55,799 bases of DNA from an uncultured Butyrivibrio sp. (GCA_944382105.1 CALWMX010000054.1:1-55799), one strand, 5' to 3'; positions 1 through 55,503 are shown, counted from the first letter of the stretch. Numbers and translations are program-made. The notes: a model not told the origin generated them from the sequence alone.

Positions 1-330
1 ATTTACTGGGATTTTCACTCCCTGCTGCTGGGTATCCAGATGATGTTCAGCTTCATGCTGGTGGATGGTGACCAGCCCCTGCGCCTGTGCAAGCATTGCC
101 AGAAGGTGTTCCTGGGCAGCCGGTCCAACGCCGCCTTTTGCAGCCCACGGTGCAAAAATCAGTACAATGTCTACAAGAGCCGGGGAAAGAACCGGACTGA
201 TGGAGGTCTCGATGAATCAGCGTGGTTCTGGGACTTTCCACGTATGAAACCTGAGAAATCCTCTTTTACAAGACCGAAATCGGAGAAGTGCGGGTGGAAA
301 TCCTGCTCTGTCAGGAAAATCTCTGGCTGA
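1..330 (+). CDS. CGNR zinc-finger domain protein, 5'-partial; C-terminus probably extended by loss of native stop near 217
   Basis: Frame open from base 1; LRLCKHCQKVF...FCSPRCKNQYNVYKSR is the CxxC...CSxxC(G/K)N zinc-finger pattern. Confidence 0.75.
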   Translation: MYWDFHSLLLGIQMMFSFMLVDGDQPLRLCKHCQKVFLGSRSNAAFCSPRCKNQYNVYKSRGKNRTDGGLDESAWFWDFPRMKPEKSSFTRPKSEKCGWKSCSVRKISG

Positions 331-1244
331 CACAGGCAAAAATGGCAGAGCTGTTTGAGGTGCAGAAAGCAGCCATTTCCAAACATTTGAAAAACATTTT
401 TGAAACCGGCGAACTGAGCGAGGATTCAGTTGTTTCCAAAATGGAAACAACTGCGGCGGACGGAAAGCGGTATCAGACCAACTATTATAATCTGGATGCC
501 ATTATCGCTGTGGGGTATCGGGTAAATTCCAAGAAAGCGACCATGTTCCGTATTTGGGCGAACAAGGTGTTGAAAGAGTTCATCATCAAAGGCTATGTAA
601 TGGATGACGCACGGCTGCGAGAGCCGGAGAACTTTTTTGGCAAGGATTATTTCGAGGAACAGCTGGAGCGTATCCGGGACATCCGAGCCAGCGAGAGAAG
701 ATTTTACCAGAAAATCACGGACATCTATTCCCAGTGCAGCGCCGACTACGATGTGGAAAGCCCCATCACAAAGGAGTTTTTCGCCACGGTGCAGAATAAG
801 CTCCACTATGCGGTCACCCATCATACCGCTGCTGAGATTGTATATGGCCGTGCCGACAGCACCAAACCCAACATGGGGCTGACCACATGGAAAAATGCCC
901 CCAAAGGCCACATCCGTAAATCGGATGTCACCGTCGCCAAAAACTATCTGAACGAAACAGAAATGCGCAACCTGAACGAGATCGTCACCATGTACCTGGA
1001 CTATGCGGAACGGCAGGCCCGACGGGGAAATGTCATGTATATGGCCGATTGGGTCAAGCGGCTTGACGCATTTTTACAGTTCAATGAGGAAGATATTCTG
1101 CATGATAAAGGCAAAGTGACTGCCGCCATTGCCAAAGCCTTTGCCGAGAAAGAGTTTGAAAAGTTCCGGGTATTGCAGGACAGAACCTATCAAAGCGACT
1201 TTGACAGGCTGGTTGCGGAAACTTCGGATGACCTGGCAGAATGA
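212..1244 (+). pseudogene. rhuM: RhuM-family virulence/DNA-binding protein with disrupted 5' end (intact ORF 288-1244)
   Basis: WLTQAKMAELF, YNLDAIIAVGYRVNS, IRDIRASERRFYQKITDIY, FFATVQNKLHYA motifs; GGAGG at 202-206 plus ATG 212 are out of frame with the body, and an in-frame TGA sits at 252-254. Confidence 0.8.
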
Positions 1245-8997: not shown

Positions 8998-9597
8998 TCA
9001 CGTTATATGATATTTTTTCACTGTTCTTTCTATTTTTTTCCCTATCGGTCCGGCCAGCATAAGTAAAAATATAACATTTGATATTGCGTATATCAGCGTG
9101 TACGGTACGGCTGAAGCCACGGCAATGGCATAATACGACCATGACCATCCGTCCACCGTCCATATGACCGTATATATATCCATAAGGAACGAAAAAACAA
9201 TCCCTGCGCCGATTCCGTACACGGCCAGCATAAGCCTTCTGCTCCGGAGCGTCTCCTGCATCAGCCCGGCAGCCGCACCGATAATCCCCCAGACAAGCAT
9301 CTGAAAAGGTGTCCACGGTCCCTGACCGAAATAAAAATTGGAGATAAGCCCGGTCAATGCCCCGCAGTAAAAGCCTGCGTCCGCGCCAAGATACATTCCG
9401 CATATTACTATGATTGCCGTCACCGGTTTAAAACCCGGAAATGGCGCAAAGACAAAACGTCCCGCCACGCTCATTGCAGTCATCACCGCTATGAGCATAA
9501 TTTTGCGTACGTCCGTTTTCTTTTTTTCCATTATTACAAGCAGAATTGCACAGGCCGCAATAACCGACCATACAATTGCCAGAGCCATTGTTTTCAT
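8998..9597 (-). CDS. cbrT: ECF transporter S component, CbrT-like (cobalamin)
   Basis: PGFKPVTAII, LISNFYFGQGPWTPFQM; multiple TM helices; last gene of the cobalamin-riboswitch operon. Confidence 0.75.
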   Translation of the reverse strand: MKTMALAIVWSVIAACAILLVIMEKKKTDVRKIMLIAVMTAMSVAGRFVFAPFPGFKPVTAIIVICGMYLGADAGFYCGALTGLISNFYFGQGPWTPFQMLVWGIIGAAAGLMQETLRSRRLMLAVYGIGAGIVFSFLMDIYTVIWTVDGWSWSYYAIAVASAVPYTLIYAISNVIFLLMLAGPIGKKIERTVKKYHIT

Positions 9598-9654
9598 AGC
9601 TTAAGCCTTCTCTCATTTAAGCGTATCTTCTTTAAACATATCTTTGGGTGTATG

Positions 9655-11061
9655 TCAGTCAGAATTCATCTTGCTTAATCTTGCGCCAGCAGTGGTATAA
9701 AATATATTGCTTTCACAAAACTCCCGTGCCGGTCTGTCGCAGACTATTTTACCTCCGAACATAAGCAGCATCCTGTCCGAAAACATTGCCGCAAATTCCA
9801 CATCATGCGTAATCAGAAGAATTGCTTTTCCTTCATCCCGTAGCTTTTCAAGCCGTTTTCCCAGCTTCTCTTTTTCATTATAATCAAGGCCCTTGGTTGG
9901 TTCGTCAAGAATAAGCAGCGAAGGATTTTTTGAAAGAATTATATCAAGGGCCGCAAGCTGCCTTTCGCCGCCGCTTAAGTCATACGGATGCATTCCGTTG
10001 TATTTTCCGTCCACAGTGTCCCCGGTAAAATGAAGCGTCACATCCTGAAAAAGCATTGCCGAATTTTCGCCTGCTTTTTTTATTTTTCTGCCGTTAATCT
10101 TTACGCTTCCGGAATAAGGCTTAAGCGCTCCGGCCGACAGCAAAGCAAGGGTGGATTTACCGCAGCCGTTTTCTCCCAGAAGCGCGGTTATGCTGCCGCC
10201 GTCCACCGAAAGATTCAGATTGTCAATTAATGCCCCTTTACTCCTGTCATAAGCAAACGAAACGTTCTTAAGCCTCAGAACCGGATGAGATGACAACGGC
10301 GCCTCTTTACCGACGTAAACAGCATGCGCTTTCCCGAAAACGGCCTCCGCCAGCGAAAGCGGCGGAGGAGACATTTCCACGGATCTGGCTATTTCCGGCA
10401 GAAATCCGCGAAGCTCCTGACTGCGGCTCATATATTCCGCCATACTCCTTTTGTCCTTGCACACGACGGTTTCATCCTCAATAAGAAGAATTTTATCCGC
10501 ATATGCAAAAATTCTGTCAGAGCGGTGTTCTGCAATGATTACCGTGATTCCCAGCTCTCTGTTTATATTTTTTACAAGGTCGATAACCCTGTCCGCCATT
10601 ATGGGATCCAGCATGGAAGTGGGTTCGTCCATCAAAAGAACCTTGGGGTTAGCGGCCATTGCTGAAGCAATGTTGAGTATCTGTTTTTCACCTCCTGAAA
10701 GCGTGTGAGTATCACGGTTAATCTGACGGCTTATGCCAAAATATCCTGCCGTTTCCGCAACCCGCTGCCTTATGAGCTCAAGCCTGTGCCGCTCATTACC
10801 CTGTGTAGCGTTTGTCGCCCCGAATTCCAGCTCCGAATACACCCTATCGCACACAATCTGGTTATCGGGATTCTGCATTACAAAACCGGCTTTCGTGTCC
10901 AGTTCCTTTTGAATCAGCCTCAGAAGCGTTGATTTCCCGGAGCCGGTTTTTCCGCAGAGCAGTACAAGCTCTCCCTGATTAATGTCAACGGCTGCGCCGG
11001 AAAAAATCCTGCGTCCCGGAGCATACTCAAAATCTATATTTTCAAGGTGTATATTTTCCAT
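9655..11061 (-). CDS. ECF transporter fused double ATPase
   Basis: Two Walker A (GKTGSGKST, GENGCGKST), LSGGE signatures, DEPT Walker B. Confidence 0.92.
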   Translation of the reverse strand: MENIHLENIDFEYAPGRRIFSGAAVDINQGELVLLCGKTGSGKSTLLRLIQKELDTKAGFVMQNPDNQIVCDRVYSELEFGATNATQGNERHRLELIRQRVAETAGYFGISRQINRDTHTLSGGEKQILNIASAMAANPKVLLMDEPTSMLDPIMADRVIDLVKNINRELGITVIIAEHRSDRIFAYADKILLIEDETVVCKDKRSMAEYMSRSQELRGFLPEIARSVEMSPPPLSLAEAVFGKAHAVYVGKEAPLSSHPVLRLKNVSFAYDRSKGALIDNLNLSVDGGSITALLGENGCGKSTLALLSAGALKPYSGSVKINGRKIKKAGENSAMLFQDVTLHFTGDTVDGKYNGMHPYDLSGGERQLAALDIILSKNPSLLILDEPTKGLDYNEKEKLGKRLEKLRDEGKAILLITHDVEFAAMFSDRMLLMFGGKIVCDRPAREFCESNIFYTTAGARLSKMNSD

Positions 11062-11831
11062 TTCACGTTCTCCTTAATCCTGTATATTTCAGGCAGAAAA
11101 CATAATACCGCCATCAATATTCCATGCCACGTCTCCGGCAGAAAATACATTGTCTGAAGCGCCGCCGTCAAGGCAAGCACCGCTGCATCACCCGGCCTGA
11201 ATTGAATTCCTGAAATTCTTTTGCCTCCTGAGGTATAGCCGCGCATAATCATTGAATCCGCCGTGTCCATGGAATTTTCAAGAGCCCATGTGAATACTGC
11301 CGAGGTAATCTGCATTATGTGCTTTTTTTCCGGGACCTGCCCCCGCTCCTCATTTATGCGCGCTGCAAGCCCGGTTTTGTTGTATCTTTCCAGGTATCTG
11401 GGTATGAGCCTCATAATCATCGAAATCAAAAGCGCCAGCTTTGGAAGGTGCCAAAGCAGCGCCATTATTTTTTCACCGGTAAGCGTTCTTGAAAATGCCG
11501 AAAACCACACAATCGCCGCTGCAAGCATAAGTCCGTTTACGGCGCCGTACCTGATTGCTTCAAGCGTTACCGCCCTGTCGTTTATAAAAAAAAGCTCCGT
11601 ATCTCCCTGATGTGACAAAAGGCCGTTGACCAATGCCATTACCGCCGTCAGGACCGCCGAAAAAAGAATCCTTTTTACCGGTATTTTCCTTTCGTATATT
11701 CCGGCACGTACAAGTCCGGCAGCAAGAGCCGTCAGTATAATAAAAGGGTTCATAAATACCATTATGGGAATAATGACTGTCATGTAATATATCAGCAATG
11801 TTGCAGGATTAAAATTTTCAAAACGTCTCAT
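11034..11831 (-). CDS. ecfT: ECF transporter transmembrane T component
   Basis: TM helices, MRLIPRY, ALENSMDTADSMIMRGY motif. Confidence 0.9.
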   Translation of the reverse strand: MRRFENFNPATLLIYYMTVIIPIMVFMNPFIILTALAAGLVRAGIYERKIPVKRILFSAVLTAVMALVNGLLSHQGDTELFFINDRAVTLEAIRYGAVNGLMLAAAIVWFSAFSRTLTGEKIMALLWHLPKLALLISMIMRLIPRYLERYNKTGLAARINEERGQVPEKKHIMQITSAVFTWALENSMDTADSMIMRGYTSGGKRISGIQFRPGDAAVLALTAALQTMYFLPETWHGILMAVLCFLPEIYRIKENVKWKIYTLKI

Positions 11832-13423
11832 GGCTTTTCCTCCGTCAGGTCCGTACCGTCAGAGTATATCCACCTCACTTCATCATCAGGTTCCAATTCA
11901 TACTGTGAGCAGGATACCTCCGGCATTTTACCGTTGACATAATATGTCCATCCCGACAGGCTTCCGTAATCAAACTCAGCAAGACCGTCAATGCTTCTTA
12001 CGTATATGGTACCGAGAGCCGCGCTTCCGCTGTAATCAATGTTTATCCGTCTGTCTCCTGCCAGCCTGAGAAGCTGGTCAAAGGCCGTATCGCCGGTTTC
12101 AATGTACACCTGTGTCCGCGGCGCTATTATACCGTTTATACCCGTAACCGTTATATATGTCTCAGTGCTTCCCTGTTCATTACGGACATTGTAATGCTCG
12201 CTGACTGTCTCAAAGCTGGAAAATCCGACTATGGTCATAAGCGCCGCGCACACCGCCCCCGTAACGATTGCCTTTATAAGAGTCAGCCGTTTTCTGAACG
12301 CCATGACAAGTATTATGACTGCGGCGGCAGACAAAATAATACCCATAAAAATATGCTTTATATGCCTGCCGCTTATACCGTTTCCCGTATGCGGCAAGGT
12401 TTCCTCATCAGGTATTTCCGTGCCTGTTTCATTTTCTTCTGCCTGTCCGTTTGGGGCAGAGTCACCGTCATCAATATCTTCCAACGTATCTCCGGACGTA
12501 AAATCATACAGAAATCTGCCGGTATTTTCATATTTTTCCGCACACACAAGCGCTCCCAGCGCCTGCACCGTAGCCATGGAATCTGCCGGGCCTCCCTGCG
12601 TGTGTGAAAAGCCGCCTTCCTCCGTAATATATGTAATCAACGCATCGTAGACGCTTTCACCGTTTTTTATAAATCTTGTATCGTTTCTGAAATCTATATC
12701 CAGAGCGCAAAGCGCCATCAGAACCTGCGCCGTGCTTTCACTGTTATCCACCCCATAGCTGGCGTAACCGCCGTTATTCTCTTGCAGCTCCGACAGCCTT
12801 GCCACTGCTTTTTCTATATTTTCACCGTATCCTTTATCATAAAGCGGTGCAAGGGCCTGAAGCGCCATTGCCGTCACATCGGCATCCGAATACTGCCCTG
12901 TCAGATTCCAGCCTCCGTCCTCAAGCTGCAGCGACGTGAGGCTGTCGGCAATTTCCGTCAAAACGGCATCATCAACATAATTATTGCTGCACGCAAGCAT
13001 CAGTCCGTATATTATGCTCATAATACCGCTTTGACCGGTATGATTTCTGACAGTATCAACTATATATTCTTTATCCTGCCCTAGACATGCTTTCACAAGC
13101 CCAATACGCTCATAATCGGTTGCACTAAGCTCTTTCGCCGAAATAAGATATTCATCCAGCGCATCATTGTATTGTCCGTAATCCGCTTCAATCCCTGACT
13201 CCTTCATATATATCACAAGCCAGTCTCCGCCGCGTCCGGCAGACGGCACAAGGCCGGTACTCAGATACTCTTCGTAATCCGAGACGCCAGCCTGTGTCAT
13301 TTGATATTTCCAGATTCTCTCCTGTATGTTTTTATTCTCATCCCCGGCAGAGACTTGCAGCGCTGCCGTAACCGCAAAGATTACGGCAAACGCCAATGCT
13401 TTAATCTTGTTTTTACCTCTCAT
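11828..13423 (-). CDS. Secreted alpha/alpha-barrel (prenyltransferase-like repeats) + 2 TM + DUF4430 (transcobalamin C-terminal-like) protein
   Basis: QLEDGGW, DVTAMALQAL, NSESTAQVLMAL repeats; YVRSIDGL..SGWTYYVNG..DEVRWIY. Confidence 0.8.
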   Translation of the reverse strand: MRGKNKIKALAFAVIFAVTAALQVSAGDENKNIQERIWKYQMTQAGVSDYEEYLSTGLVPSAGRGGDWLVIYMKESGIEADYGQYNDALDEYLISAKELSATDYERIGLVKACLGQDKEYIVDTVRNHTGQSGIMSIIYGLMLACSNNYVDDAVLTEIADSLTSLQLEDGGWNLTGQYSDADVTAMALQALAPLYDKGYGENIEKAVARLSELQENNGGYASYGVDNSESTAQVLMALCALDIDFRNDTRFIKNGESVYDALITYITEEGGFSHTQGGPADSMATVQALGALVCAEKYENTGRFLYDFTSGDTLEDIDDGDSAPNGQAEENETGTEIPDEETLPHTGNGISGRHIKHIFMGIILSAAAVIILVMAFRKRLTLIKAIVTGAVCAALMTIVGFSSFETVSEHYNVRNEQGSTETYITVTGINGIIAPRTQVYIETGDTAFDQLLRLAGDRRINIDYSGSAALGTIYVRSIDGLAEFDYGSLSGWTYYVNGKMPEVSCSQYELEPDDEVRWIYSDGTDLTEEKP

Positions 13424-14231
13424 ACGCTTCCTTTTTGGATATTATTGCGCCTGCAAAAATAACCGCCATTGCAGCCATAACCCCGGCATAAACCGCCGGG
13501 TCTGCAAAATCCGCCGTTTCTATATCCGTGTCAACGGCAACGGTATAATCAGGTGCGAATCTTAATACCGTGGGAACACCTGTATCGTCGTATCTCTCGA
13601 TAGTCACCTTATGCTCACCGTTTGTGAGCAATTCTTTGTCAATTGTGATTCTGCCCTCGGCATCTGTGGTGTATTCCGTAAAGCCGGCATCATCCGAATA
13701 CCATTTTACAACAGCATTTTCAACCGGGTTTACCACAACCGACGGGTTATAATTCTCATCATATACGGTGTCTTTGCTGGTAAAAGTAATCACTCCGTTT
13801 TCGATATCTGATAAGTCAGCCTCCGGAAACTGAAAGCCTGCGCCGTACGGGTCGCCATAATAAAGAACAACCTCGTCACCGTCTTTAAGCATGACGTTGT
13901 CCATCCCTGTTCCCGGATCTGCCCCGTTGACAATAAAAAGCCATCCCGAATACGCGCCGTAGGATGCCGCCTTGTCGCCGTTTACTTCAGTGAGGTATCT
14001 GCCGTATCCGCCATCCTCCATGACAATATTTATATTGTCATTGTCCGAACCTAACTGCTCCAGGAAATCTCCAAGATTTGTGTCCGTCGTAGTTACGGTG
14101 TCATAATAAAAGTTCTCGTCAACACCCTCAATCCTGAGCGTTACGTTGATTTCGTCCTCCGCCGCGGCAAATACGGACAGGCTTCCTATTGAAAGCAGTA
14201 CCGCCATGACAAACGTTGCAAATTTTTTCAT
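13413..14231 (-). CDS. DUF4430 (transcobalamin C-terminal-like) surface protein with C-terminal anchor
   Basis: Signal peptide; YLTEVNG..SGWLFIVNG..LKDGDEVVLYY; Ig-like segment; ETAD + TM + KK tail. Confidence 0.8.
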   Translation of the reverse strand: MKKFATFVMAVLLSIGSLSVFAAAEDEINVTLRIEGVDENFYYDTVTTTDTNLGDFLEQLGSDNDNINIVMEDGGYGRYLTEVNGDKAASYGAYSGWLFIVNGADPGTGMDNVMLKDGDEVVLYYGDPYGAGFQFPEADLSDIENGVITFTSKDTVYDENYNPSVVVNPVENAVVKWYSDDAGFTEYTTDAEGRITIDKELLTNGEHKVTIERYDDTGVPTVLRFAPDYTVAVDTDIETADFADPAVYAGVMAAMAVIFAGAIISKKEAYER

Positions 14232-14257
14232 AAACTGTTCCTCCGATTATAATAATA

Positions 14258-14282
14258 TAAAAAGGCGCCTTAAAGGGCGCCT
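14258..14282 (-). terminator. Intrinsic terminator in riboswitch expression platform
   Basis: AGGCGCC-CTTTAA-GGCGCCT-TTTT just upstream of the RBS. Confidence 0.8.
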
Positions 14283-14388
14283 CACTAAACGGACCTCCGA
14301 TATAACGGCTGTCCGGTTTAATGCGGTGTACTTTTCCCTGCCCAAAAGTCATTCCACTTAACATTCACGGTCCTGTAAATGTCCTTCA

Positions 14389-14517
14389 CACGCGACGAGC
14401 GATCTGACTTACGGCACGTTAAAATACCGTTCACAGTTATGGCTGTAGCTCCGGATTCACACCGGCTTCTCTCCTGAATCCCCCGCTTACCGATATCTGG
14501 GGAGATTTTCTTCGCGC
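14389..14517 (-). ncRNA. Cobalamin riboswitch
   Basis: Minus strand AGAGAAGCCGGTGTGAATCCGG...AACTGTGA...AAGTCAGATC B12-box pattern; P1 GCGCGA/TCGCGT; TATAAT at 14521-14526; upstream of ECF genes. Confidence 0.85.
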
Positions 14518-14540
14518 ATGATTATATTGTATATGTATAT

Positions 14541-15811: not shown

Positions 15812-16765
15812 CTAAATATCCATCCCCGAATTTTCCACATCTTTCTTCCAATTATCATAAGCCGGCTCTTCCCTGTGGTCAGGAAGACTGAATTTTTCCG
15901 ACAAATATTCCCCAAGATACGATGACACTTTCTTGGCGCCGGCAAAATTCAGATGATTTCCGCCGTCCTTTGTTTCCTTTGTCCAGTCAATATCAATCTC
16001 ATCCTGCATGAGATTCATATCAAGAAATTCAAGACCGTATTCCTCTGCAATTTTCTCAACGGCATTATGCTTGGCATACGACCAGTTATCCGGTGAGGGC
16101 ACGCTTACAAGTATAAGCGCAGCTCCTTTTTCCTCAGTGTACTTCTTTATTTTCTTAAGATACTCCTCCGTATTTTCTCCCATACGGGCCACTTTTTCGG
16201 TCTCATGCATCCATTGGCCGCCGGTATACGGTTCGCATGCGGTCCTGTATCTGAAACCTTTGAAGCGGCTGTCGTTTTCATCTTTATTGGTATAGACCTT
16301 AAGCGGTATGTATGTTTTCCACCTGTCATGATATTTCAGTACCGGAATCACTTTTGAAAATGCATTCATAACAGCGTCCGAATCATCCTCATGCGTACCT
16401 GAAAAACGAAACAGACAGTTTGTTTCCAGAACCACAACCTTAGGCGACTGCTTGGAAAAAAATTCTTCCATCAGCGCATATGTATCGCAAAGCCTCTGGA
16501 GCGAGGTTCCGCACACATATGACGTGTATCCCTGCTCTTTAAACATCTGAAGAGGATTGAAGGCGGAATAGCTTTCGCTGTCACCGAAAAAAACCAAATC
16601 AATGGACTGTTCGGCTTCCTTTTTCAAATCCTTTGTTTTGTTGTCAACGCCAACCGCATTATAAACGGCGTTTCGCGGCTTCATAATAACCGAGGTTACG
16701 GCAAGTATTACAGCCAGCCCTGCAAGAAAAGCCGCAGAGCGGATAATTTTTTTTATTATATCCAT
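15812..16765 (-). CDS. SGNH-fold membrane-anchored acyltransferase (DltD/AlgJ-like)
   Basis: N-terminal TM; FFGDSE nucleophile motif; KDGGNHLN catalytic Asp/His; GGAGG RBS before MDIIKK. Confidence 0.8.
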   Translation of the reverse strand: MDIIKKIIRSAAFLAGLAVILAVTSVIMKPRNAVYNAVGVDNKTKDLKKEAEQSIDLVFFGDSESYSAFNPLQMFKEQGYTSYVCGTSLQRLCDTYALMEEFFSKQSPKVVVLETNCLFRFSGTHEDDSDAVMNAFSKVIPVLKYHDRWKTYIPLKVYTNKDENDSRFKGFRYRTACEPYTGGQWMHETEKVARMGENTEEYLKKIKKYTEEKGAALILVSVPSPDNWSYAKHNAVEKIAEEYGLEFLDMNLMQDEIDIDWTKETKDGGNHLNFAGAKKVSSYLGEYLSEKFSLPDHREEPAYDNWKKDVENSGMDI

Positions 16766-16776
16766 GTTTACCCTCC

Positions 16777-18327
16777 CTAATATCCTGCATAAATCAAATC
16801 CACTGCCGTGTAGCCGCTTCCGTATGCCCCGAAAATAACCACAAGCATAATGGCGGCATACCAGAATATCCATCTGGCCGGGACAACCCAGCCTGATACC
16901 TTCTGCCGGATATCGATATTTTTCTCTTTAAGCGCCCCGACAACGGTAACGATAATTATCCCTGCTCCGGCAACAATAAGGTCCAGTCTGTCCATTTTCA
17001 GCCGGTGTATATTTGAAAAAAGCGCGCTGATATGGAAATTGCCGAATATTCCTGCCAGCATTGCAAATCCGTCTTTAAGGGAATTTGCCCTGAAAAACAG
17101 TTCTCCGACCAGCACTATTATAAAAAGCTTGGCCGTCCTGAATATTTTATATCCGATGCTTTCCCTGTTGATATGCAGTTTCTCGGCAAGCTTTTTAACA
17201 GGCTCTTCGGTAATATTCTCTATAAAAATCAACACGAAATAATACATTCCGTAGAAAATAAAGGTCCAGTTAGCGCCGTGCCACAGGCCGTTGCACGCCC
17301 ATACGCAGAACAGTGCCGCCGTTGGCGCAACAAATTTGCTGACATTCCTGCCGAATCTTTTTTTAACTTTCTTGGCGGCATTCTTGACAGGCCCTGCAAG
17401 CGATACGGGGTAGAATATGTAATCCTTAAAAAATGTACCCAGCGTTATATGCCATCTTCGCCAGAACTCGCCTGCGGATTTTGCGAGAAACGGCTGCCTG
17501 AAATTCTCCGGAAGCTTTACGCCGAATATCTGGCCACTGCCTATTACAATATCCATACAGCCGGAAAATTCAAGATACAGCTGGGCCACGTAGCAGACCA
17601 CTCCGAAAAGGATTATCGAGCCGTCCTTATCCGCATAATCGTTGAAAATATAATTTACGGTAGGATATATCCTGTCGGCAATGACAATTTTCTTAAAAAG
17701 CCCCCACAATATTCTCTGGTATCCGAACTTAAGGTTGTCGAATTTGACGGATTCGCCCGCATACAGCGTGTCTGCCGTCTCATGAAACCTTGCAATCGGC
17801 CCCTCCATTATCTGAGGGAAGAAGCTTAAATAAAGCGCTACTTTTGCAATATTATGCTCTGCCTTCAGGGTTCCCCTGTATACATCGGTAATATACGATA
17901 TAATCTCCAGCGTGTAGAAGGACAATCCTATGGGCACCATAAATTTTACGCCGCCAAATGTCCAGTCCACGTTAAACAAATGAAGCAAATCCGACAAAGA
18001 CTGTCCGAAGAAATTCGTATACTTGAGCACCACAAGCACAAGAAGGTTAGCCGCTATTCCAAACGCAAGAATGCGCCTTTTCTTTTTGGTGACGTTTTTT
18101 TTGTCCCCATCGTTTTTCAGTGCGGTTCTCTCAATCCATATTCCTATAAAATAAGTGAGAAGCGTGGCGCATATCAAGTATACAATCAGCTTGCCGGAAA
18201 ACAGCCAGAAAAAAACATAATCCGCTGCAATTATAACGGCAAACCTGAATTTCTTAGGTACAATCTGATACAGAAGAATAACAACCGGCAGAAAGACAGC
18301 AAAATACGCTATCGTATGATATGCCAT
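16777..18327 (-). CDS. MBOAT family O-acyltransferase (DltB/AlgI-like)
   Basis: PIGLSFYT, FFPQIMEGPI, ENFRQPF..EFWRRWHITL, NGLWHGA; C-terminal LIYAGY. Confidence 0.95.
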   Translation of the reverse strand: MAYHTIAYFAVFLPVVILLYQIVPKKFRFAVIIAADYVFFWLFSGKLIVYLICATLLTYFIGIWIERTALKNDGDKKNVTKKKRRILAFGIAANLLVLVVLKYTNFFGQSLSDLLHLFNVDWTFGGVKFMVPIGLSFYTLEIISYITDVYRGTLKAEHNIAKVALYLSFFPQIMEGPIARFHETADTLYAGESVKFDNLKFGYQRILWGLFKKIVIADRIYPTVNYIFNDYADKDGSIILFGVVCYVAQLYLEFSGCMDIVIGSGQIFGVKLPENFRQPFLAKSAGEFWRRWHITLGTFFKDYIFYPVSLAGPVKNAAKKVKKRFGRNVSKFVAPTAALFCVWACNGLWHGANWTFIFYGMYYFVLIFIENITEEPVKKLAEKLHINRESIGYKIFRTAKLFIIVLVGELFFRANSLKDGFAMLAGIFGNFHISALFSNIHRLKMDRLDLIVAGAGIIIVTVVGALKEKNIDIRQKVSGWVVPARWIFWYAAIMLVVIFGAYGSGYTAVDLIYAGY

Positions 18328-18330
18328 ATT

Positions 18331-18561
18331 CTATTCTTCTCCTTTTAGTCTGCAAATCATCTTCCAAAGACTGTCTGCCGAATTGAAATTTTCCGCAACA
18401 AGCTCTGCCGGTGAAATTTCAACATCAAACGCATCCTCAATCTCGGATACAAGCGACAGTATTCCGAAGGAATCCAGAATATGGTCGTCAATCAGGGTCT
18501 TGCATGACGCATAATCTACTCCCGGCTGAATATCCTCCAAAATTTCCAATAACTCTTCCAT
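18331..18561 (-). CDS. Acyl/aminoacyl carrier protein (DltC-like)
   Basis: 76 aa, acidic; ILDSFGILSLV phosphopantetheine Ser motif. Confidence 0.92.
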   Translation of the reverse strand: MEELLEILEDIQPGVDYASCKTLIDDHILDSFGILSLVSEIEDAFDVEISPAELVAENFNSADSLWKMICRLKGEE

Positions 18562-18563
18562 CT

Positions 18564-19739
18564 TTATCCCTCCATCTGTGAATTTATAATATCGGTTCCC
18601 ATAGGCTTTCTGACCACTGTATAACCGCTATTATCCGAATAAAATACAATCTGCACCAGCTCTCTGCTCAAAAAGAGCGCCATGCATTCCGTTACCGAGT
18701 AAGCGCCGCAGTTCTCAAATATAAACCAGTCTCCGCGGTTTATCCCGGTAAAAGCAATGCCTCTTAAAATTACGTCGTTGACAGTGCACAGCGAACCGCA
18801 TATATTCCACGGCATCTCACTGCCCGAATTATCCGTAACCAGTTTCATAAAAGGTTTTTTCATTCCCATACTCTGACCGTAATAATTAAGCTGGTGAATA
18901 CCTCCGTCGATTATGGCATAATTTACGCCGTCGGTATGTTTTACATCCACCACCGATGTTATATAATAACCGCAGCCGGAAGCAATAAATCTGCCCATTT
19001 CTATGGTGATTTGCTTATAACCCGATACGGCGTCAAGCAGTTTTCTCAGTTCATCCAGCTCCCAGACCTGATCTGCCGGCTTGTCGCTTTCAAAATACGT
19101 CACGGAAAGCCCCGGTCCGTATTCAAGTTCATTAAGACAGACCCCGTATGTTTCCTCAATATAATGTGAAAATTCATCCAGCATTTTCAGTTCTTTTTCT
19201 ATTTTGGACAGCTTTTTCTGTGTCCCGGAATAATAATGAAGTCCTTGCAGCTTCAAATGACTGTCATTAATTACCTTCTGCATAATATTTTCAAATTCCG
19301 CTTTGTCCACACCGAACTGATTACCGCTGGAAAGCCTTATTATAACCATGATATCCGTATTGCATTCTGAACATACTTTGGACAGTATATCATAATGCTC
19401 CATGGATTCGATGGTAAAAATACCCTTTCCCCCACTGAGCCTGATAATGCGTTCCATTGAGTCATATGTTTTGTTTACGCCGGACACGACTATTTTTTCA
19501 GGCGGTATATCCATCCTGCGGCATATTTCATATTCTCCCGGCGAACAAACCTCGTACTTGTGAATATATTCGTTCATAGGCTTTATAAGAAACGGATTGG
19601 CCTTCATTGCATAGCAGCACCTGGCGTCCCCGAGTCTGCTCTTTATAAGCTCCACACGTTCCCTGAGCATATCAAGGTCGAAGACATAGAGCGGTGAGCC
19701 AAATAGTTCTTTTGCCTGTTTCAGCTTATTAAGCTCCAC
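18564..19739 (-). CDS. Fold-type III PLP decarboxylase (LysA/BtrK-like)
   Basis: YAMKANP PLP Lys, HYYSGTQ, IEMGRF, GSLCTVND, GAYS. Confidence 0.88.
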   Translation of the reverse strand: MELNKLKQAKELFGSPLYVFDLDMLRERVELIKSRLGDARCCYAMKANPFLIKPMNEYIHKYEVCSPGEYEICRRMDIPPEKIVVSGVNKTYDSMERIIRLSGGKGIFTIESMEHYDILSKVCSECNTDIMVIIRLSSGNQFGVDKAEFENIMQKVINDSHLKLQGLHYYSGTQKKLSKIEKELKMLDEFSHYIEETYGVCLNELEYGPGLSVTYFESDKPADQVWELDELRKLLDAVSGYKQITIEMGRFIASGCGYYITSVVDVKHTDGVNYAIIDGGIHQLNYYGQSMGMKKPFMKLVTDNSGSEMPWNICGSLCTVNDVILRGIAFTGINRGDWFIFENCGAYSVTECMALFLSRELVQIVFYSDNSGYTVVRKPMGTDIINSQMEG

Positions 19740-21252
19740 GTTTTTTTCCCCCTTTATACTGTTCTTTCAGATATGCCCTGTCAAGCTTGCCGTTTTTGGT
19801 GAGCGGCATCTCCTTCACCTGCATGAAAACGTTCGGTATCATAAATTCAGGTACCTTTGTTTTCATAATTTTTATTATATCTGTGCGCTCGGCGCCGCCC
19901 TCATAGAAGGTTACAATTTTATTTTTTACATCATCAAAAAATGTGCAGGCTCTCTCAACGCCGTCTATACCGTTTATTGCGGCGTCTATCTCCTCAAGTT
20001 CTATTCTGTGGCCCATATGCTTGATTTGAAAATCCTTGCGTCCCGCAAAATACATAAGCCCGTCATCCCCGTATGAGGCAAGGTCACCGGTTCTGTATAT
20101 AATCTCAGAAAAATTCCTGTTGAGAGGATTCTGTACAAAAGCTTTGGCCGTCATTTCAGGATTATTATAATATCCCAGCGCAAGCGCCGTACCTGTCACG
20201 CACACCTCTCCGGTCACTCCGGCTTTTGTCACAAGCTTATCGTTCTCATCCAGCAGGAAAACCCGCTCGTTAGGAAAAGCTTTTCCCATAGGAAGTCTGT
20301 CATCATCTTCATATTCTCTGTCCAATATGTGATAAGTACAGTTGCATGTAATCTCCGTGGGGCCGTACAGGTTTACGAACAAAGCGTCCGGGTAACATGC
20401 ACGCCATGCGTTGAGCTGCTTAATCGGCATCATCTCTCCGCTGAACATTATCTTGTTAATCCGGGAGGGAACTTTATATTTAAGTCCGTGCAGCCTGTTG
20501 AGCAGACAGAGTGCAGATACAGCCCAGATAAGCGTTGTCACGCCGTTGTCCTCAAGCATATCGACAACATTATTTGGAAACATAAAATATGACTTCGGTA
20601 TTATTACAAGCGTTGCTCCGGTACTCAGACATGAATATATATCCTTTACCGACACATCGAAATCAAACGGCGCCTGATTACCGATAACATCCTTGTCATT
20701 AATCCCGAATATGCCGGTAAAATTATCTATAAAATCAATAACCGAACGATGGCAGATTACGACGCCCTTCGGTACTCCCGTGGAACCGGATGTAAAGATA
20801 CCGTAAAGCGGGTCCGTGTCAAGAGTCTGTTTTCTTACGGCGTCAAGCGCTTTATCATCTATTTCACTGTGAATCCCGCGTATATCCGCTGCCGCGCCGC
20901 TGTATCCGGCCTTCCTCAGCTTATCCATATATTCCGGCTCGGTCAGAACCATGGCCGGAGCCAGAACATCCAGTATCTGCTCTATTCTCTGCTGCGGAAA
21001 AGACGGGTCCAATAAAACATAAAAGCAGCCGGCATAAACAATTCCCATAAATACCTTAAGGATTTCAACGCTTTTTTCCGCGAAGACAACCACTGGCCTG
21101 CGCACCTGAACATATTCCGTCAGATAAGAGCCTACCTGTCGGGCTCTTAAATAAAGTTCGCCGTAGGTACATTGTGCATGTTCATCTCTGACTGCTGTTT
21201 TATCAGGAAATCGCTCATATGAGCGTTCCAGATATTCCAATACGTTATTCAT
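19729..21252 (-). CDS. Stand-alone amino acid adenylation domain protein (DltA-like)
   Basis: FTSGSTGVPKG, NQAPFDFDVS, YGPTE, YRTGDL, PLTKNGKLDR; GGAGG RBS before MNNVLE. Confidence 0.93.
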   Translation of the reverse strand: MNNVLEYLERSYERFPDKTAVRDEHAQCTYGELYLRARQVGSYLTEYVQVRRPVVVFAEKSVEILKVFMGIVYAGCFYVLLDPSFPQQRIEQILDVLAPAMVLTEPEYMDKLRKAGYSGAAADIRGIHSEIDDKALDAVRKQTLDTDPLYGIFTSGSTGVPKGVVICHRSVIDFIDNFTGIFGINDKDVIGNQAPFDFDVSVKDIYSCLSTGATLVIIPKSYFMFPNNVVDMLEDNGVTTLIWAVSALCLLNRLHGLKYKVPSRINKIMFSGEMMPIKQLNAWRACYPDALFVNLYGPTEITCNCTYHILDREYEDDDRLPMGKAFPNERVFLLDENDKLVTKAGVTGEVCVTGTALALGYYNNPEMTAKAFVQNPLNRNFSEIIYRTGDLASYGDDGLMYFAGRKDFQIKHMGHRIELEEIDAAINGIDGVERACTFFDDVKNKIVTFYEGGAERTDIIKIMKTKVPEFMIPNVFMQVKEMPLTKNGKLDRAYLKEQYKGGKKRGA

Positions 21253-21453
21253 TTTTCCCTCCCATATTTGCGCTTTTCCAACTGTACTATTGGGCATAGT
21301 ACAGTTTTCAAATTTAATATACCACCGACAGCATACAGTGTCAATATAATTCTTATAAAACACATAAAAAACACAAAATAATACAAAAAACAGGCCGGCG
21401 CATTATCGATATCAAATCGTAGTGCGTCAGCCTGCAAATCAGCATACATTCCG

Positions 21454-45591: not shown

Positions 45592-46347
45592 TTACTCTGT
45601 AACTTCTTTCATCGTATACATTCCGGCAGGCTTTCCCTTGAGGAATTTAGCAGCTTCAACCGCGCCTTTTGCAAACACGGTCTTGGAATATGCCGTATGC
45701 TTAAATTCGATTACTTCATCCTCTCCGGCAAAAATTACATCGTGTTCGCCCACTATCGTTCCTCCTCTTACGGCGCTTATACCTATTTCATTCTTAGGAC
45801 GAGGAACTCTGTCGGCGCTTCTGTCAAATTTATAGCTGTAAGGCTCAGGAAGGCCTTCATTTACTGCATCAGCAAGAGCAAGCGCTGTACCGCTTGGAGC
45901 ATCAACCTTAAAATGATGATGCTTTTCAACTATCTCAATGTCAAAACCGGCTTCGGCAAGAAGCGGAGATACTGACTTTAAAATTTTAAAAAGCGTATTT
46001 ATCCCCAATGACATATTGGCCGAACGAAGAACCGCAGTCTTATGGCTGGCAGCCTCCGCTTTGGCAATCTGCTCTTCACTTAATCCGGTAGTGCACAGCA
46101 CCAGCGGAAGCCTGTGGGCAGCGCAGTAATCAATAAGTGCATCAACCGCCTTAGCGGATGCAAAATCAATTACAACATCCGCCTGCACATCACATTCCTC
46201 CAGCGATGAGAAAACCGGATATGCGTTATGTCCGTCATCAAAAATATCAATGCCTGCAACAATCTGAGCGTTATCGTCATCGGCAACAAGCTTTGTGATA
46301 ACCTGTCCCATTTTGCCGTTACATCCATGCATAATTATTTTAACCAT
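45592..46347 (-). CDS. dapB: 4-hydroxy-tetrahydrodipicolinate reductase
   Basis: GCNGKMG, CTTG, EKHHHFKVDAPSGTA, RGGTIVGEH. Confidence 0.97.
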   Translation of the reverse strand: MVKIIMHGCNGKMGQVITKLVADDDNAQIVAGIDIFDDGHNAYPVFSSLEECDVQADVVIDFASAKAVDALIDYCAAHRLPLVLCTTGLSEEQIAKAEAASHKTAVLRSANMSLGINTLFKILKSVSPLLAEAGFDIEIVEKHHHFKVDAPSGTALALADAVNEGLPEPYSYKFDRSADRVPRPKNEIGISAVRGGTIVGEHDVIFAGEDEVIEFKHTAYSKTVFAKGAVEAAKFLKGKPAGMYTMKEVTE

Positions 46348-46451: not shown

Positions 46452-47336
46452 TTACAGCAGTCCGTAATTTGTCATGGCGGTTTTGAGTCTTTCAAGATTG
46501 GCCGGTTCCATAGGCGATAAAGGCATTCTGAGCGGTCCTGCCTCCATGCCCATAAGATTCATGGCATGCTTAACAGGTATCGGATTGACCTCGCAGAAAA
46601 GCGCCTTGATAAGCTCAATCGCCTCAAGCTGCTTACGGCATGAACTCTTCACATCCCCCGCAAGATAATCCGCAACAATTTCATGCGTCTGTCTTGGCGC
46701 AACATTGGACAAGACTGAAATCACTCCCTTGCCTCCCAGTGACATAATAGGCACAATCTGGTCGTCATTGCCGGAATATAAGTCAATCTTGCCGTCCATC
46801 ATACTCATAAGCGCGGCAACCTGCGATATATCTCCTGACGCTTCTTTTATACCCACTACATTGGAAGCTTCCCTGCAGATTGCGGCAACGGTTGCCGGCT
46901 GAATGTTACAGCCCGTCCTGCTTGGAACATTGTAAAGGATAACGGGAATCTTAACCGCATCCGCCATGGCTTTGAAATGACTCACAAGCCCCGCCTGCGT
47001 GGCCTTATTATAGTAAGGCGTGACGCACAAAAGCGCATCTGCTCCGGCTTCCTGCGCTTCTTTTGAAAGAGCAATCCCGAATTCCGTACAGTTGGAGCCC
47101 GTTCCGGCAATTACCGGAACCCTGCCCTTGACCTGCTCCACGCCGAATTTGATAACATCAATATGCTCCTGTGTGGAAAGTGTGGCTGCCTCTCCTGTAG
47201 TTCCGCAGATGATTATACTGTCCGTGTGATTGTCAATCTGAAACTCAATAATCTCGGCAAGCTTATCGTAATTAACGCTGCCGTCCTCATGCATTGGTGT
47301 TATAAGCGCAACACCCGCTCCTGTAAAAACTGACAT
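46452..47336 (-). CDS. dapA: 4-hydroxy-tetrahydrodipicolinate synthase
   Basis: GTTGE, YNVPSRT, GIKEASG, SGNDD, NPIPVK. Confidence 0.97.
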   Translation of the reverse strand: MSVFTGAGVALITPMHEDGSVNYDKLAEIIEFQIDNHTDSIIICGTTGEAATLSTQEHIDVIKFGVEQVKGRVPVIAGTGSNCTEFGIALSKEAQEAGADALLCVTPYYNKATQAGLVSHFKAMADAVKIPVILYNVPSRTGCNIQPATVAAICREASNVVGIKEASGDISQVAALMSMMDGKIDLYSGNDDQIVPIMSLGGKGVISVLSNVAPRQTHEIVADYLAGDVKSSCRKQLEAIELIKALFCEVNPIPVKHAMNLMGMEAGPLRMPLSPMEPANLERLKTAMTNYGLL

Positions 47337-47382: not shown

Positions 47383-47410
47383 TAAAGCCATACTCATATC
47401 GAATAATACT

Positions 47411-47575
47411 TTAGTAGCTCCCCATCCTGCGATGACAGTAATATGGTTATTAACCATATTCCCAGCGTTCATAACCTCAGGTATTATGCCGCTTCGGCAC
47501 CATTCCCTTTCAACCATGCTCATATATGCCTGACATATCACATGGAATACTTATTAACGGTGCGACCTCTACTTA
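47411..47575 (-). ncRNA. Lysine riboswitch
   Basis: AGTAGAGGTCGC...GAAAGG...GCCGAA...CTGGG...ACTGTC...GGAGCTACT; upstream of dapA. Confidence 0.92.
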
Positions 47576-47594
47576 ATATATTTATGTTAAAAAC

Positions 47595-50432: not shown

Positions 50433-53400
50433 TTATGCTCTGCGTCTCTTTTTAATGGTTACAACTCCCGTTGCAGCGCTCGCTGCAAGAGCTATCAGCA
50501 TAAATCCTAATGCTCCGGTATCGCCTGTATCCACAGGTCCTTCCGTCGGGTCATCATCTGAATCATCAGGATTCGTCGAAGGGTCGTCACCAGGATCTAT
50601 TGATGGATTTTCCTCCTTGCTGAGTGAAGCCTTCTCTATAACATAGAGCACACCGTCATATGTCGGAGCACCGCCGTCTACATAGCAGTCCGTGATGAAA
50701 TCTATTGTAAATTCGTCACCTGAAACCGGAATAACAAGAGTAGCCTTGCCGTCAACAACCGTTCCGACCCACTGTTCTCCGTCAACGCCGCCGATAATAT
50801 CATCTACATCGTCTCCGTCAAAGTCTTTATTCCAGCCTACCTGTGCGCCGCCCCACATATAATAGTGAACGCCGTCCTTATCGGTAACTCTTACAATGTT
50901 TCCGCACCAGTCATTCCACGTATCTGCCGCAGAGTCAGGTATCGTAACTTCTACAATAACATTCTTGACTCCTTCGGTAGACGGGAAATCTTTATCTGTT
51001 ATTGTAGCACTCGGCGTAACACCGTCAATCGGCCTGCATTCAATGCCAAGCGTAATTTCCGGATTATCCGCGTCAATTGCAGGAATTATTTCAGACATAG
51101 TCTTACCGCAAGTCTGGCACTCATAATTAATTACGCCGTCAACTCCTACCTGTGCATCCACTCTGGAAACTTCTTTATAATCGTGTTCTCTCTTAATCTC
51201 AAACACAGTCGTAAGTCCGTTATCAGTCATTGCCGTTATTGTTGCATTTCCATCGCCTACAATTGTTGCGGTAACGGTTGCATAACCGTTTTCATCAACC
51301 GAAACAGCTTTGGAAGGTACGGATATAACCGATTCATCAGATGATACGAACGTAACAACATTTTCAGTGTTAGCAGGTGTGAGCTTAACCGATACTTCAA
51401 ATGTGTTTTCTGTTGTGTCAGGACAGATATTGATTGTTTCTCCATCCTCGGCCTCCATCTTCTCTGCCGGATTCTGGATTTCGGATGATGACGTTTTAAA
51501 CTTCATGCCTGAAAGCGTAAACGTAATCTCAATTACTTTATGCTCGGTGTTGGTGGTAAATGTTGCAACATGGTCGCTGACACTTACTTCATCAACAGCC
51601 GAACCGTCCCATGCGTTTACAGGATTACCGCTGTCAAATACGCCTGACTTGATTGCTTCCTTCGCTTCCGCATTGCTGTTGAGCGTAAGCTCCTGTCCGT
51701 CAAGAACAACCTTGTCAATCTGTATCATACAGGTCTCAACCGGCGAAGCTTTTGTTTCACCCGTATCAACGCTCTGGTCTTTGATATAAATAGACGTTAA
51801 TCTGTCAAGGTTTGTAATTCCTGCATTCTTTGCTGCATTGGACAAGTCAGTGTCGCAGTCAAATCTTACAGTATACTGTCCGTCGCCCGTAACATTTATT
51901 ACGGTTCCGGTCTCTGTGCTCCAGTATTCGTTTACCGAGTCGTTATAAAGTACCTTAAGACCCAGTGAAATTTCATCCGTGTCAAGCGCATCCTTAACAT
52001 TGATTTCAACTGTCTTTGTGGCGCCGCTCTCTGACGTAACGATAATATATGTTCTGCCTACACCTGTTCCGACTACTTTACCAAGGCTGTTTACGGTAGC
52101 CACATCCGGATTGGACGAGGTAAACGTAACTGCCTCTCCGTTGCTTGCGGATGCGGTAATAGTCGTACTCTTATCAAGAATGATTGTCTTGGTATCTTCA
52201 TCTACGGTAATGGTAACATCTTCTGAGGAAGCCTTAGCGCTTACATTAACCACAATGTCCTCGCTTACGGAGCCGCTCTGCGAATATACGTGTACCGTTG
52301 TCTGTCCGATGCCTTTTGCATGCAGCTTACCGTTAAATACGGTAACTATATCATCATTATCCGTTGACCAGAATACTATATCGTTGGTTTCGGCAGGAGC
52401 CGTGTCAACCGTAAGAGTCTCCCAGTCGCCGATTGTCATATCAACAGTTGTGGCTGAAGGAGTGATTGACGTTATCTCAACAACCTCAGGATCCTGTTCA
52501 ATATCAGAGAAGTCATAATTTAAGTTCAGATCCGATGCGGCCAGATATGTACCTCTCATCATTCCGTCAATAATTGTCTTGAATATCGGCCTAAGTTCGG
52601 TTCTGTTCCAGTATGAGAAAAGTCCTGTTTCATACTCTCCGTTAGTTCCAAAGCCCTGATCCCATACAATCGGCACAACGCCCGCTACCTGACATGCTCT
52701 GTTGGCAATCTCACAGAACCATGCACGTGCAACATCATTATAGCCCGATTCGGTGCCTGACTGCTCATAAATTCTGTTTCCGTACTCACCAAGGTACATA
52801 GGAACATCGCTTCCGAATTTGTTCTGCATTGCCTGAAGCCTTTCCCAAAGTCCCTGAATGTCGGAAAGCTTCCATGTTGTGTTAGTAGATGCCACATAAA
52901 TATGTGCGGCAAACATAAGTCTGTTGGTATCATTATACGTGTCTTCCGGAAGGGTAAAGCTTGAGCTGCTTCCGTTATTAGCATAATGAGCCACTACGGC
53001 GAGCCATCTCTTTGTGTTGTTTGAACCTGTTGAACGTACGGTATTTACAAAAAGCTGGTTGAAATTCACAATAATCGGCGTATCATATGCAACAGCTTCG
53101 CTTCCGTTCTTATCCGTTTCCGAACATGAAATCTCGTTCATGGACTCAAATATAAGGTGCTCGTCATAATCCTTAAATCTTTCTGCAATATGTCTCCAGA
53201 CAGCTTCGTATTTCTCCATTACGGAATCGATATCATCCGCAGCAACCCTTAGCCAGCCTGTCTGCTCTGCGCCGTCATGGTGAACATTGATGATTGCGTA
53301 CATATCCTGCTCTACGCAGTAATCGACAATATCCTGAACCCTGTTCAGCCATGTTTCGTTAATTGCATATCCGTTTTCATCGTCTATCATATTGCCCCAT

Positions 53401-55328: not shown

Positions 55329-55503
55329 AAACAATACCTCCTGAAAAATTAAGTGTAAAGCTGCCGTTTCTTTCAGAAACGACAGCTCCCCTTGAGTTAA
55401 ATAATACCATGTTTATACGTAAATTTCAACAATAACTTTATATATTTGAAAATATTTTTTGTGCACTTACCACAAATTAAACCTGTTATTTTTCGACAAA
55501 AAA

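What the first reader, a model, noticed from the sequence alone, without database searches (positions are those of the whole stretch)
8998..14517. B12-riboswitch operon with a bacterial transcobalamin-like capture relay feeding an ECF transporter
Seen: riboswitch, then a wall-anchored DUF4430 protein, an alpha/alpha-barrel+DUF4430 protein, EcfT, double ATPase and S component, mostly with overlapping stop/start codons. Established: animal transcobalamin, intrinsic factor and haptocorrin bind cobalamin between an alpha6/alpha6 barrel and a C-terminal beta domain, and DUF4430 is the transcobalamin-like beta domain; ECF transporters normally work without soluble binding proteins. Inference: an Isd-like surface relay that captures corrinoids, possibly competing with host carriers, and hands them to CbrT.
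Basis: partly seen in the sequence, partly recalled or inferred. Interest (0 to 1): 0.8.

Follow-up and report, generated by a model that had tools for sequence, protein, structure and literature searches.

The report
Membrane-tethered bacterial transcobalamin B12 importer
A gut bacterium in which no B12-making genes were found carries a five-gene operon, likely switched off by B12, for a B12-type membrane importer plus two surface proteins predicted to fold like animal transcobalamin; this kind of system was predicted in 2007, and the new detail is that both transcobalamin halves sit in one protein joined by a membrane hairpin.

Summary
Five co-directional genes follow a divergent cobalamin riboswitch (below Rfam cut-off here, above it in 9 of 19 related loci, with covariation and a terminator). 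The S component's best solved relative is the B12 transporter CbrT. Models of both surface proteins match transcobalamin, intrinsic factor and haptocorrin. The genome has B12-dependent MetH, and no MetE, BtuF or B12 synthesis genes were found, so this is its likely B12 importer.

The idea is not new. Burroughs 2007 predicted toroid+SLBB B12 scavengers beside CbiO/CbiQ genes. Verplaetse 2019 modelled split alpha/beta proteins feeding an ECF S component in L. sakei, where the measured cargo was heme. This scan has noted the same system on other DNA several times.

The variant here: the barrel and beta domains, usually separate neighbouring genes, are fused through a two-helix membrane hairpin (97 of 97 homologues aligned), and the model packs them roughly as in intrinsic factor. 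B12 binding, an ordered Isd-like relay and competition with host carriers are untested; nothing here supports the last. Verdict: new variant of a known kind, interest 0.4.

The parts
14380..14526 (-). Divergent, short cobalamin riboswitch aptamer; L5 loop CAGCC at 14441-14445
   Evidence: RF00174 23.6 bits, E 5e-4; only RF00174 match in the genome at E<=1; covariation in 11 of 23 pairs; coordinates
14330..14349 (-). P13 hairpin whose loop can form 4 of 5 kissing pairs with L5 (predicted)
   Evidence: Same pattern in 11 of 12 aligned leaders
14262..14283 (-). Intrinsic terminator hairpin with U tract, likely expression platform
   Evidence: a hairpin plus U-rich tail was found in all 10 of 12 leaders the script could parse
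13413..14231 (-). Gene 1, 272 aa: signal peptide, transcobalamin-beta (DUF4430) domain 28-129, Ig/FN3-like domain 133-236, C-terminal hydrophobic anchor with degenerate sorting motif
   Evidence: haptocorrin/TC/IF beta domain and 3U7Z at Z 14.0-14.8, next unrelated Z 8.2
11828..13423 (-). Gene 2, 531 aa: signal peptide, alpha6/alpha6 barrel (30-305), acidic linker, two-helix membrane hairpin (352-401), transcobalamin-beta domain (418-523); both domains predicted outside
11034..11831 (-). Dedicated EcfT (CbrV-like; that name is recalled)
   Evidence: PF02361 21.3 bits; syntenic
9655..11061 (-). Fused double ABC ATPase (EcfAA'), shorter than in some relatives, with two Walker A, signature and Walker B motifs
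8998..9597 (-). CbrT-type S component with an extra N-terminal hydrophobic helix
   Evidence: Best PDB hit 6FNP CbrT: E 1e-9 single sequence, 7e-17 profile, next S-type chain 4HZU 0.004; 6FNP identity from PMC5997447

Best explanation
This is likely the cell's B12-repressed corrinoid import operon: a dedicated ECF transporter with a CbrT-type S component, helped by surface proteins predicted to fold like transcobalamin that would trap corrinoids next to the membrane. Steps. (1) When B12 is low, the leader would read through the terminator; bound cobalamin would fix the L5-L13 kiss and let the terminator form (structure elements shown, switching inferred). (2) Gene 2 puts an alpha6/alpha6 barrel and a transcobalamin-beta domain outside the cell on either side of a membrane hairpin (topology from signal peptide, two helices and a basic loop; inferred). 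The two domains would clamp one corrinoid as transcobalamin does (fold match shown on a model; binding inferred). (3) Gene 1 displays a lone beta domain on an Ig stalk, further out in the wall or on the membrane, as a likely weaker accessory binder (inferred; not kept in every relative). (4) The corrinoid passes to the S component, by direct contact or by raised local concentration (inferred, weakest step), and EcfT with the double ATPase drives uptake, as shown for L. delbrueckii CbrT. (5) It supplies MetH.
For: Riboswitch-like leader in 17 of 22 related loci examined (11 of these built the nhmmer profile). Barrel/beta-T-ATPase-S order kept in the 19 of 20 fetched G loci whose stretch reaches the S gene. 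S component nearest to CbrT, for which hemin did not compete with B12 uptake (PMC5997447 passage). All 14 top-listed Foldseek rows for gene 2 are TC, IF or haptocorrin (E 1.7e-8 to 4.9e-7). A rigid alignment covers both domains against IF 2PMV (Z 17.9, 330 residues, rmsd 5.2) and haptocorrin 4KKI (Z 17.8, 339 residues, rmsd 5.1). Barrel and beta are separate adjacent genes in most Clostridia checked and fused here, which suggests they act together. Barrel and beta are equally conserved (0.56, 0.57) against 0.13 for the linker, with invariant polar residues D182, T184, S230, Q233, H274 and Q287. Own genome (95.7% complete): MetH-type protein present; MetE, BtuF-type binding protein, CobS, CbiC, CobU, PduO and BtuR not found. 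Genus: B12-binding domain in 21 of 23, CobS in 0 of 23, BtuF-type in 4 of 23.
Against: No binding or transport data exist here. The barrel alone matches class II terpene cyclases better (Z 21.4, rmsd 2.9) than TC. By sequence it hits prenyltransferase and squalene cyclase families; no transcobalamin chain appears in the PDB profile search at E<=1, and the eukaryotic cobalamin-binding family is not among the 25 families shown for 81 members. The haptocorrin TNYYQ motif is in 0 of 97. Domain packing is only approximate (rmsd 5 A, pTM 0.69) and AlphaFold has seen TC structures. The L. sakei five-gene system of the same design was needed for heme uptake. The window's riboswitch is below cut-off, none was found in 5 of 22 loci (one of them ends at a contig edge), and the predicted antiterminator pairing was no better than shuffles in 8 of 10 leaders. 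CbrT works without any soluble binder in L. delbrueckii reconstitution.
Confidence: 0.7

Rival explanations
1. Ordered Isd-like relay: gene 1 captures corrinoid at the wall, hands it to gene 2, which docks on CbrT.
For: Graded anchors: gene 1 family has PxTG + hydrophobic tail in 48 of 115, a hydrophobic tail without PxTG in 35, other ends in 32; one sortase in the genome; gene 2 is membrane-embedded; all in one operon.
Against: No NEAT domain; gene 1 is missing at the locus in G016 and is a more distant protein in G005 and G020; the window's own motif is degenerate; directional transfer is untested.
Confidence: 0.3
2. The system imports heme or another tetrapyrrole, alone or besides corrinoids.
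For: Deleting L. sakei lsa1836-1840 cut 57Fe-heme uptake 5- to 8-fold at 5-40 uM (bioRxiv 10.1101/864751, passages).
Against: Cobalamin riboswitch control here; no heme catalase found in this genome; hemin did not compete on L. delbrueckii CbrT. In the passages read, heme-versus-cobalamin specificity was left open.
Confidence: 0.1
3. The surface proteins strip B12 from host intrinsic factor, transcobalamin or haptocorrin.
For: Gut habitat: the DNA was laid at >=95% identity over all 30 bins in two chicken-gut runs. Bacteroides surface lipoproteins capture B12 (PMC6143338, listing only; removal from intrinsic factor is recalled).
Against: No feature points to host-protein binding; related barrel or beta matches occur in 66 of 150 genomes sampled across the class; Burroughs places the origin of the fold pair in Gram-positive bacteria, before animals.
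Confidence: 0.07
4. The barrel is an extracellular enzyme (terpene cyclase-like, or one that frees or remodels corrinoids), not a binder.
For: Best structural and sequence matches are class II terpene cyclases; D182 is invariant.
Against: DxDD motif in 0 of 97 (it reads DxDVT); signal peptide; transporter operon; fusion to a beta domain in transcobalamin order.
Confidence: 0.08

Closest known systems
Bacterial transcobalamin-like SLBB proteins (Burroughs et al. 2007, PMC1796856; passages and section 7 part 1 read)
   Same: Secreted or anchored SLBB domains, fusion to an alpha/alpha toroid, Ig fusions, a second paralogue in the operon, CbiO and CbiQ neighbours, hosts lacking B12 synthesis, proposed B12 scavenging.
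   Different: The text read does not mention a riboswitch (0 occurrences), an S component or a membrane hairpin between toroid and SLBB; prediction only.
Lactobacillus sakei Lsa1836-1840 (Verplaetse et al., bioRxiv 10.1101/864751; passages read)
   Same: Five genes: ECF S, fused ATPase, EcfT, plus TC-like alpha and beta proteins proposed to scavenge a ligand and pass it to S.
   Different: Alpha and beta are separate proteins; measured cargo is heme; riboswitch not mentioned. No direct sequence comparison was made here.
ECF-CbrT of Lactobacillus delbrueckii (PDB 6FNP; Santos et al. 2018, PMC5997447; passages read)
   Same: Homologous S component; proven ATP-dependent cobalamin and cobinamide uptake.
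   Different: Group II there (shared ECF module); here a dedicated EcfT and fused ATPase, an extra N-terminal helix on S, and surface binders in the operon.
Animal transcobalamin / intrinsic factor / haptocorrin (2BB5, 2PMV, 4KKI)
   Same: alpha6/alpha6 barrel followed by beta domain; model aligns over both domains.
   Different: 10-15% identity; soluble carriers with a flexible linker against a membrane hairpin here; barrel keeps prenyltransferase-type repeats; TNYYQ absent.

Membership tests
ECF-CbrT (group I) | S component homologous to CbrT | tested here: met
   6FNP E 7e-17, next S-type chain 0.004
ECF-CbrT (group I) | Own EcfT and two ABC ATPase domains in the operon | tested here: met
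   EcfT score just under the Pfam cut-off
ECF-CbrT (group I) | ATP-dependent cobalamin transport | not testable with these tools
   Needs reconstitution or complementation
Transcobalamin-like SLBB clade | Transcobalamin-type beta-grasp domain | tested here: met
   Gene 1 Z 14.0-14.8 to TC/IF/HC; both genes DUF4430 above cut-off; the two beta domains are related, HHalign 98.8%
Transcobalamin-like SLBB clade | Surface location, toroid partner, CbiO/CbiQ operon, host without B12 synthesis | tested here: met
Transcobalamin-like SLBB clade | Binds B12 between toroid and beta domain | not testable with these tools
   Model packing only
Animal cobalamin carriers (TC/IF/HC) | Two-domain alpha6/alpha6 + beta architecture | tested here: met
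Animal cobalamin carriers (TC/IF/HC) | Sequence membership of the alpha-domain family; TNYYQ-type motif | tested here: not met
   No TC chain at E<=1; not among 25 families shown; motif 0 of 97
Animal cobalamin carriers (TC/IF/HC) | Soluble secreted carrier | tested here: not met
   Two predicted membrane helices in 97 of 97
Animal cobalamin carriers (TC/IF/HC) | Residue-level conservation of cobalamin contacts | not tested
   No tool printed a residue alignment to TC; likeness of D182, N227, S230 and Q287 to TC contact residues is recalled only
Cobalamin riboswitch RF00174 | Rfam gathering score | tested here: inconclusive
   23.6 < 31.5 in the window; passed in 9 of 19 related loci
Cobalamin riboswitch RF00174 | Covarying core stems, L5-L13 kissing loop, expression platform | tested here: met
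   L5-L13 role from PMC9600662 passages
Cobalamin riboswitch RF00174 | Ligand-dependent repression | not testable with these tools
   Needs a reporter
Class II terpene cyclase | DxDD catalytic motif | tested here: not met
   0 of 97
Isd-type relay | NEAT domains | tested here: not met
   No NEAT hit at E<=0.1
Isd-type relay | Sortase-anchored outer receptor | tested here: inconclusive
   Degenerate motif in the window; PxTG in 48 of 115 relatives; one sortase
Isd-type relay | Directional protein-to-protein transfer | not testable with these tools
   Needs kinetics

The most novel reading that the evidence does not exclude
Gene 2 is a true single-chain bacterial transcobalamin, a high-affinity corrinoid clamp whose membrane hairpin makes it an extra subunit of the ECF complex. 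It would take B12 from the outer beta-only protein and unload it straight into CbrT, giving an ECF transporter an obligatory binding-protein stage and a living model of the ancestor of animal B12 carriers.
Probability: 0.25. Interest if true: 0.72.

Novelty: new variant of a known kind. Interest (0 to 1): 0.4.

Why it matters
A 2007 prediction that Gram-positive toroid+SLBB proteins scavenge B12 and gave rise to animal transcobalamin has, in the papers found, no binding test, and the only genetic test of such an operon pointed to heme. This locus is a clean test case: the two halves are in one chain, the operon is under a B12 riboswitch, and the host seems to need B12 for MetH with no other importer found. 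Related genes occur in 66 of 150 genomes sampled from the class, so the answer bears on how many gut Clostridia compete for B12.

Tried and rejected
Internal LPHTG just before the first membrane helix of gene 2 suggested sortase cleavage into a wall-bound barrel and a membrane-bound beta domain; rejected, since such a motif is in 2 of 97 homologues. Complex prediction of gene 2 (30-525) with the S component: no answer, score 0.00; not evidence either way. L13-terminator antiterminator pairing: better than 95% of shuffles in only 2 of 10 leaders. Sequence search of the gene 2 beta domain against the PDB gave nothing real; gene 1 gave only 3U7Z at E 0.12. The related-loci scan gave 5 distant loci only. 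No RNA holder listed; run X19 covered 11 of 30 bins and is probably DNA. Kazanov 2007 (PMC2211319) was not the 2007 prediction. Rodionov 2009 was not retrieved (the PMC id was recalled), so what it says about accessory cbr genes is known here only through Santos 2018. Papers read for TC contact residues gave only the TNYYQ motif and general architecture. Ten paper searches showed no report of the hairpin fusion or of B12 binding by a bacterial toroid+DUF4430 protein; the library lacks most subscription journals, and supplements and figures (Burroughs Fig. 2 architectures, bioRxiv supplements) were not seen.

Full report
Observation. Five ORFs run on the minus strand from 14231 to 8998. Pfam gives DUF4430 for gene 1; a prenyltransferase alpha/alpha toroid plus DUF4430 for gene 2; CbiQ/EcfT (just under cut-off); a double ABC ATPase; and an ECF S component. 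Three of four junctions overlap.

Riboswitch. Rfam at gathering threshold finds only a lysine riboswitch in the window. At E-value threshold a full-length cobalamin match lies at 14380-14526, 23.6 bits, E 5e-4, the only one in the genome. Related loci settle it: 9 of 19 pass the cut-off. With Rfam and a profile built from 12 leaders, 17 of 22 loci carry the element; L040 (contig edge), L042, L043, L046 and L050 show none. Eleven of 23 consensus pairs covary. A conserved downstream hairpin loop can form 4 of 5 kissing pairs with L5 in 11 of 12 leaders, the interaction described for these switches (PMC9600662 passages). A terminator follows at 14262-14283. The leader therefore likely acts as a transcriptional OFF switch. 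The antiterminator pairing I proposed did not beat shuffles in 8 of 10 leaders and is not established.

Transporter. The S component's best solved relative is 6FNP (E 1e-9; profile E 7e-17 against 0.004 for the next S-type chain). 6FNP is CbrT, a proven cobalamin and cobinamide transporter on which hemin did not compete (PMC5997447 passages). Both ATPase halves keep Walker A, signature and Walker B motifs. Gene order is kept in 19 of the 20 fetched G loci; the other ends inside the ATPase. In four distant relatives the ATPase and S lie in one reading frame.

Gene 2. It is present in all 97 aligned homologues (97 of the 120 listed, chosen mainly for full-length coverage, from 292 hits), with a basic loop (net +3 to +6). 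With the signal peptide, this puts both domains outside. The AlphaFold model (pLDDT 88, pTM 0.69) has TC, IF and haptocorrin as all 14 top-listed Foldseek rows. Rigid alignment spans both domains against IF and haptocorrin (330-339 residues, rmsd about 5), so the model packs the domains roughly as in those carriers. Against this, the barrel alone is closer to class II terpene cyclases (Z 21), and sequence searches give only cyclase and prenyltransferase families. It lacks both the cyclase DxDD motif and the haptocorrin TNYYQ motif (0 of 97 each; TNYYQ from PMC4350170 passages).

Origin of the hairpin. The alignment matches 18 of 22 other genomes of the genus; 17 of those are full-length or near it and G015 is a weak partial match. 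Across the class, 66 of 150 genomes match at E<=1e-15, but only three besides the window's own give one full-length match, all in one other genus. Of ten class loci fetched, eight are split and two are hairpin fusions. In split loci the beta protein usually starts with a membrane or lipoprotein anchor, and some barrels end in a sorting signal. The hairpin is thus likely the two anchors joined by gene fusion (inference). Large surface proteins with barrel and beta fused without a hairpin also occur (L047, L049).

Gene 1. Its model (pLDDT 91.5) has a TC-beta domain (Z 14-14.8, rmsd about 2 for four of the five rows) and an Ig/FN3-like stalk. Relatives end in PxTG sorting signals (48 of 115), other hydrophobic tails (35) or other ends, including S-layer domains. 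It is an accessory surface binder, absent at the locus in G016.

Physiology. The genome (95.7% complete) has a MetH-type protein. MetE, BtuF-type proteins, CobS, CbiC, CobU, PduO, BtuR and catalase were not found. In the genus, 21 of 23 have a B12-binding domain, 0 of 23 CobS, 4 of 23 a BtuF-type protein and 4 of 23 a MetE-family match. The DNA occurs in chicken-gut metagenomes; named homologues come from Lachnospiraceae, Butyrivibrio and Ruminococcus. This fits an auxotroph that imports finished cobamides through this operon.

What is known. Burroughs 2007 (PMC1796856; passages and section 7 part 1) describes bacterial toroid+SLBB fusions, paralogous surface SLBB proteins, CbiO/CbiQ operons and B12 auxotrophy, proposes B12 scavenging, and derives animal transcobalamin from them. 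Verplaetse 2019 (bioRxiv 10.1101/864751; passages) models split alpha and beta proteins passing a ligand to an ECF S component and shows the operon is needed for heme uptake. Earlier notes of this scan report the same system in several other genomes and led me to these papers. I found no paper on the hairpin fusion or on B12 binding by such proteins in ten searches of an incomplete library.

Verdict. A real, coherent and likely B12-specific operon of a kind predicted and partly studied. It works like transcobalamin in design but is not a member of the animal family by sequence. Estimated odds: corrinoid import 0.9; TC-like clamp by gene 2 0.7; ordered relay 0.3; stripping host carriers 0.07. 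New variant of a known kind; interest 0.4, up to about 0.7 if the fused protein proves to be a docked, high-affinity binding subunit of the ECF complex.

Noticed in passing
window 47407-47579 (-): Lysine riboswitch, 106.9 bits, upstream of ORFs 46452-47336 and 45592-46347 that look like dapA and dapB (names from reading the sequence, not scanned).
   Followed up: no
window 15812-21363 (-): Cluster of an AMP-binding enzyme, a PLP decarboxylase-like protein, a DltB-like membrane acyltransferase and a 353-aa protein with no Pfam or NCBIfam hit; may modify a surface polymer.
   Followed up: partly
window 50433-55334 (-): 1633-aa protein with a GH5 cellulase domain and Ig-like domain.
   Followed up: no
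window 288-1244 (+): RhuM-family protein at the contig end, near a lower-GC stretch.
   Followed up: no
window 9655-11061 (-); L047-L050: The double ATPase is 468 aa against about 550 in more distant relatives, with shortened helical regions; in four distant relatives ATPase and S component share one frame.
   Followed up: partly
L046 (G016), L042, L043, L050: G016 lacks gene 1 and the riboswitch, with gene 2 directly behind the aminotransferase; L042, L043 and L050 keep the operon with no riboswitch detected.
   Followed up: partly
L049:1564-9381 (G036); L047:3387-5705: Very large surface proteins (up to about 2600 aa) with barrel and beta modules head the same riboswitch operons.
   Followed up: no
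G015:C9:1483-1672, G021:C152:5472-5673, G011:C36:5758-5896: Genus members without the fused gene still carry a cobalamin riboswitch elsewhere, perhaps before another importer.
   Followed up: no
window 14380-14526 and genome G000: The aptamer has a very short P6 region and no adenosyltransferase was found in the genome; it may prefer methyl- or hydroxo-cobalamin (link recalled, untested).
   Followed up: partly
P0349, P0350, P0307, P0325 and others: Gene 1 relatives swap anchors: sorting signals, SLH domains, and ends that look like dockerins (recalled).
   Followed up: no
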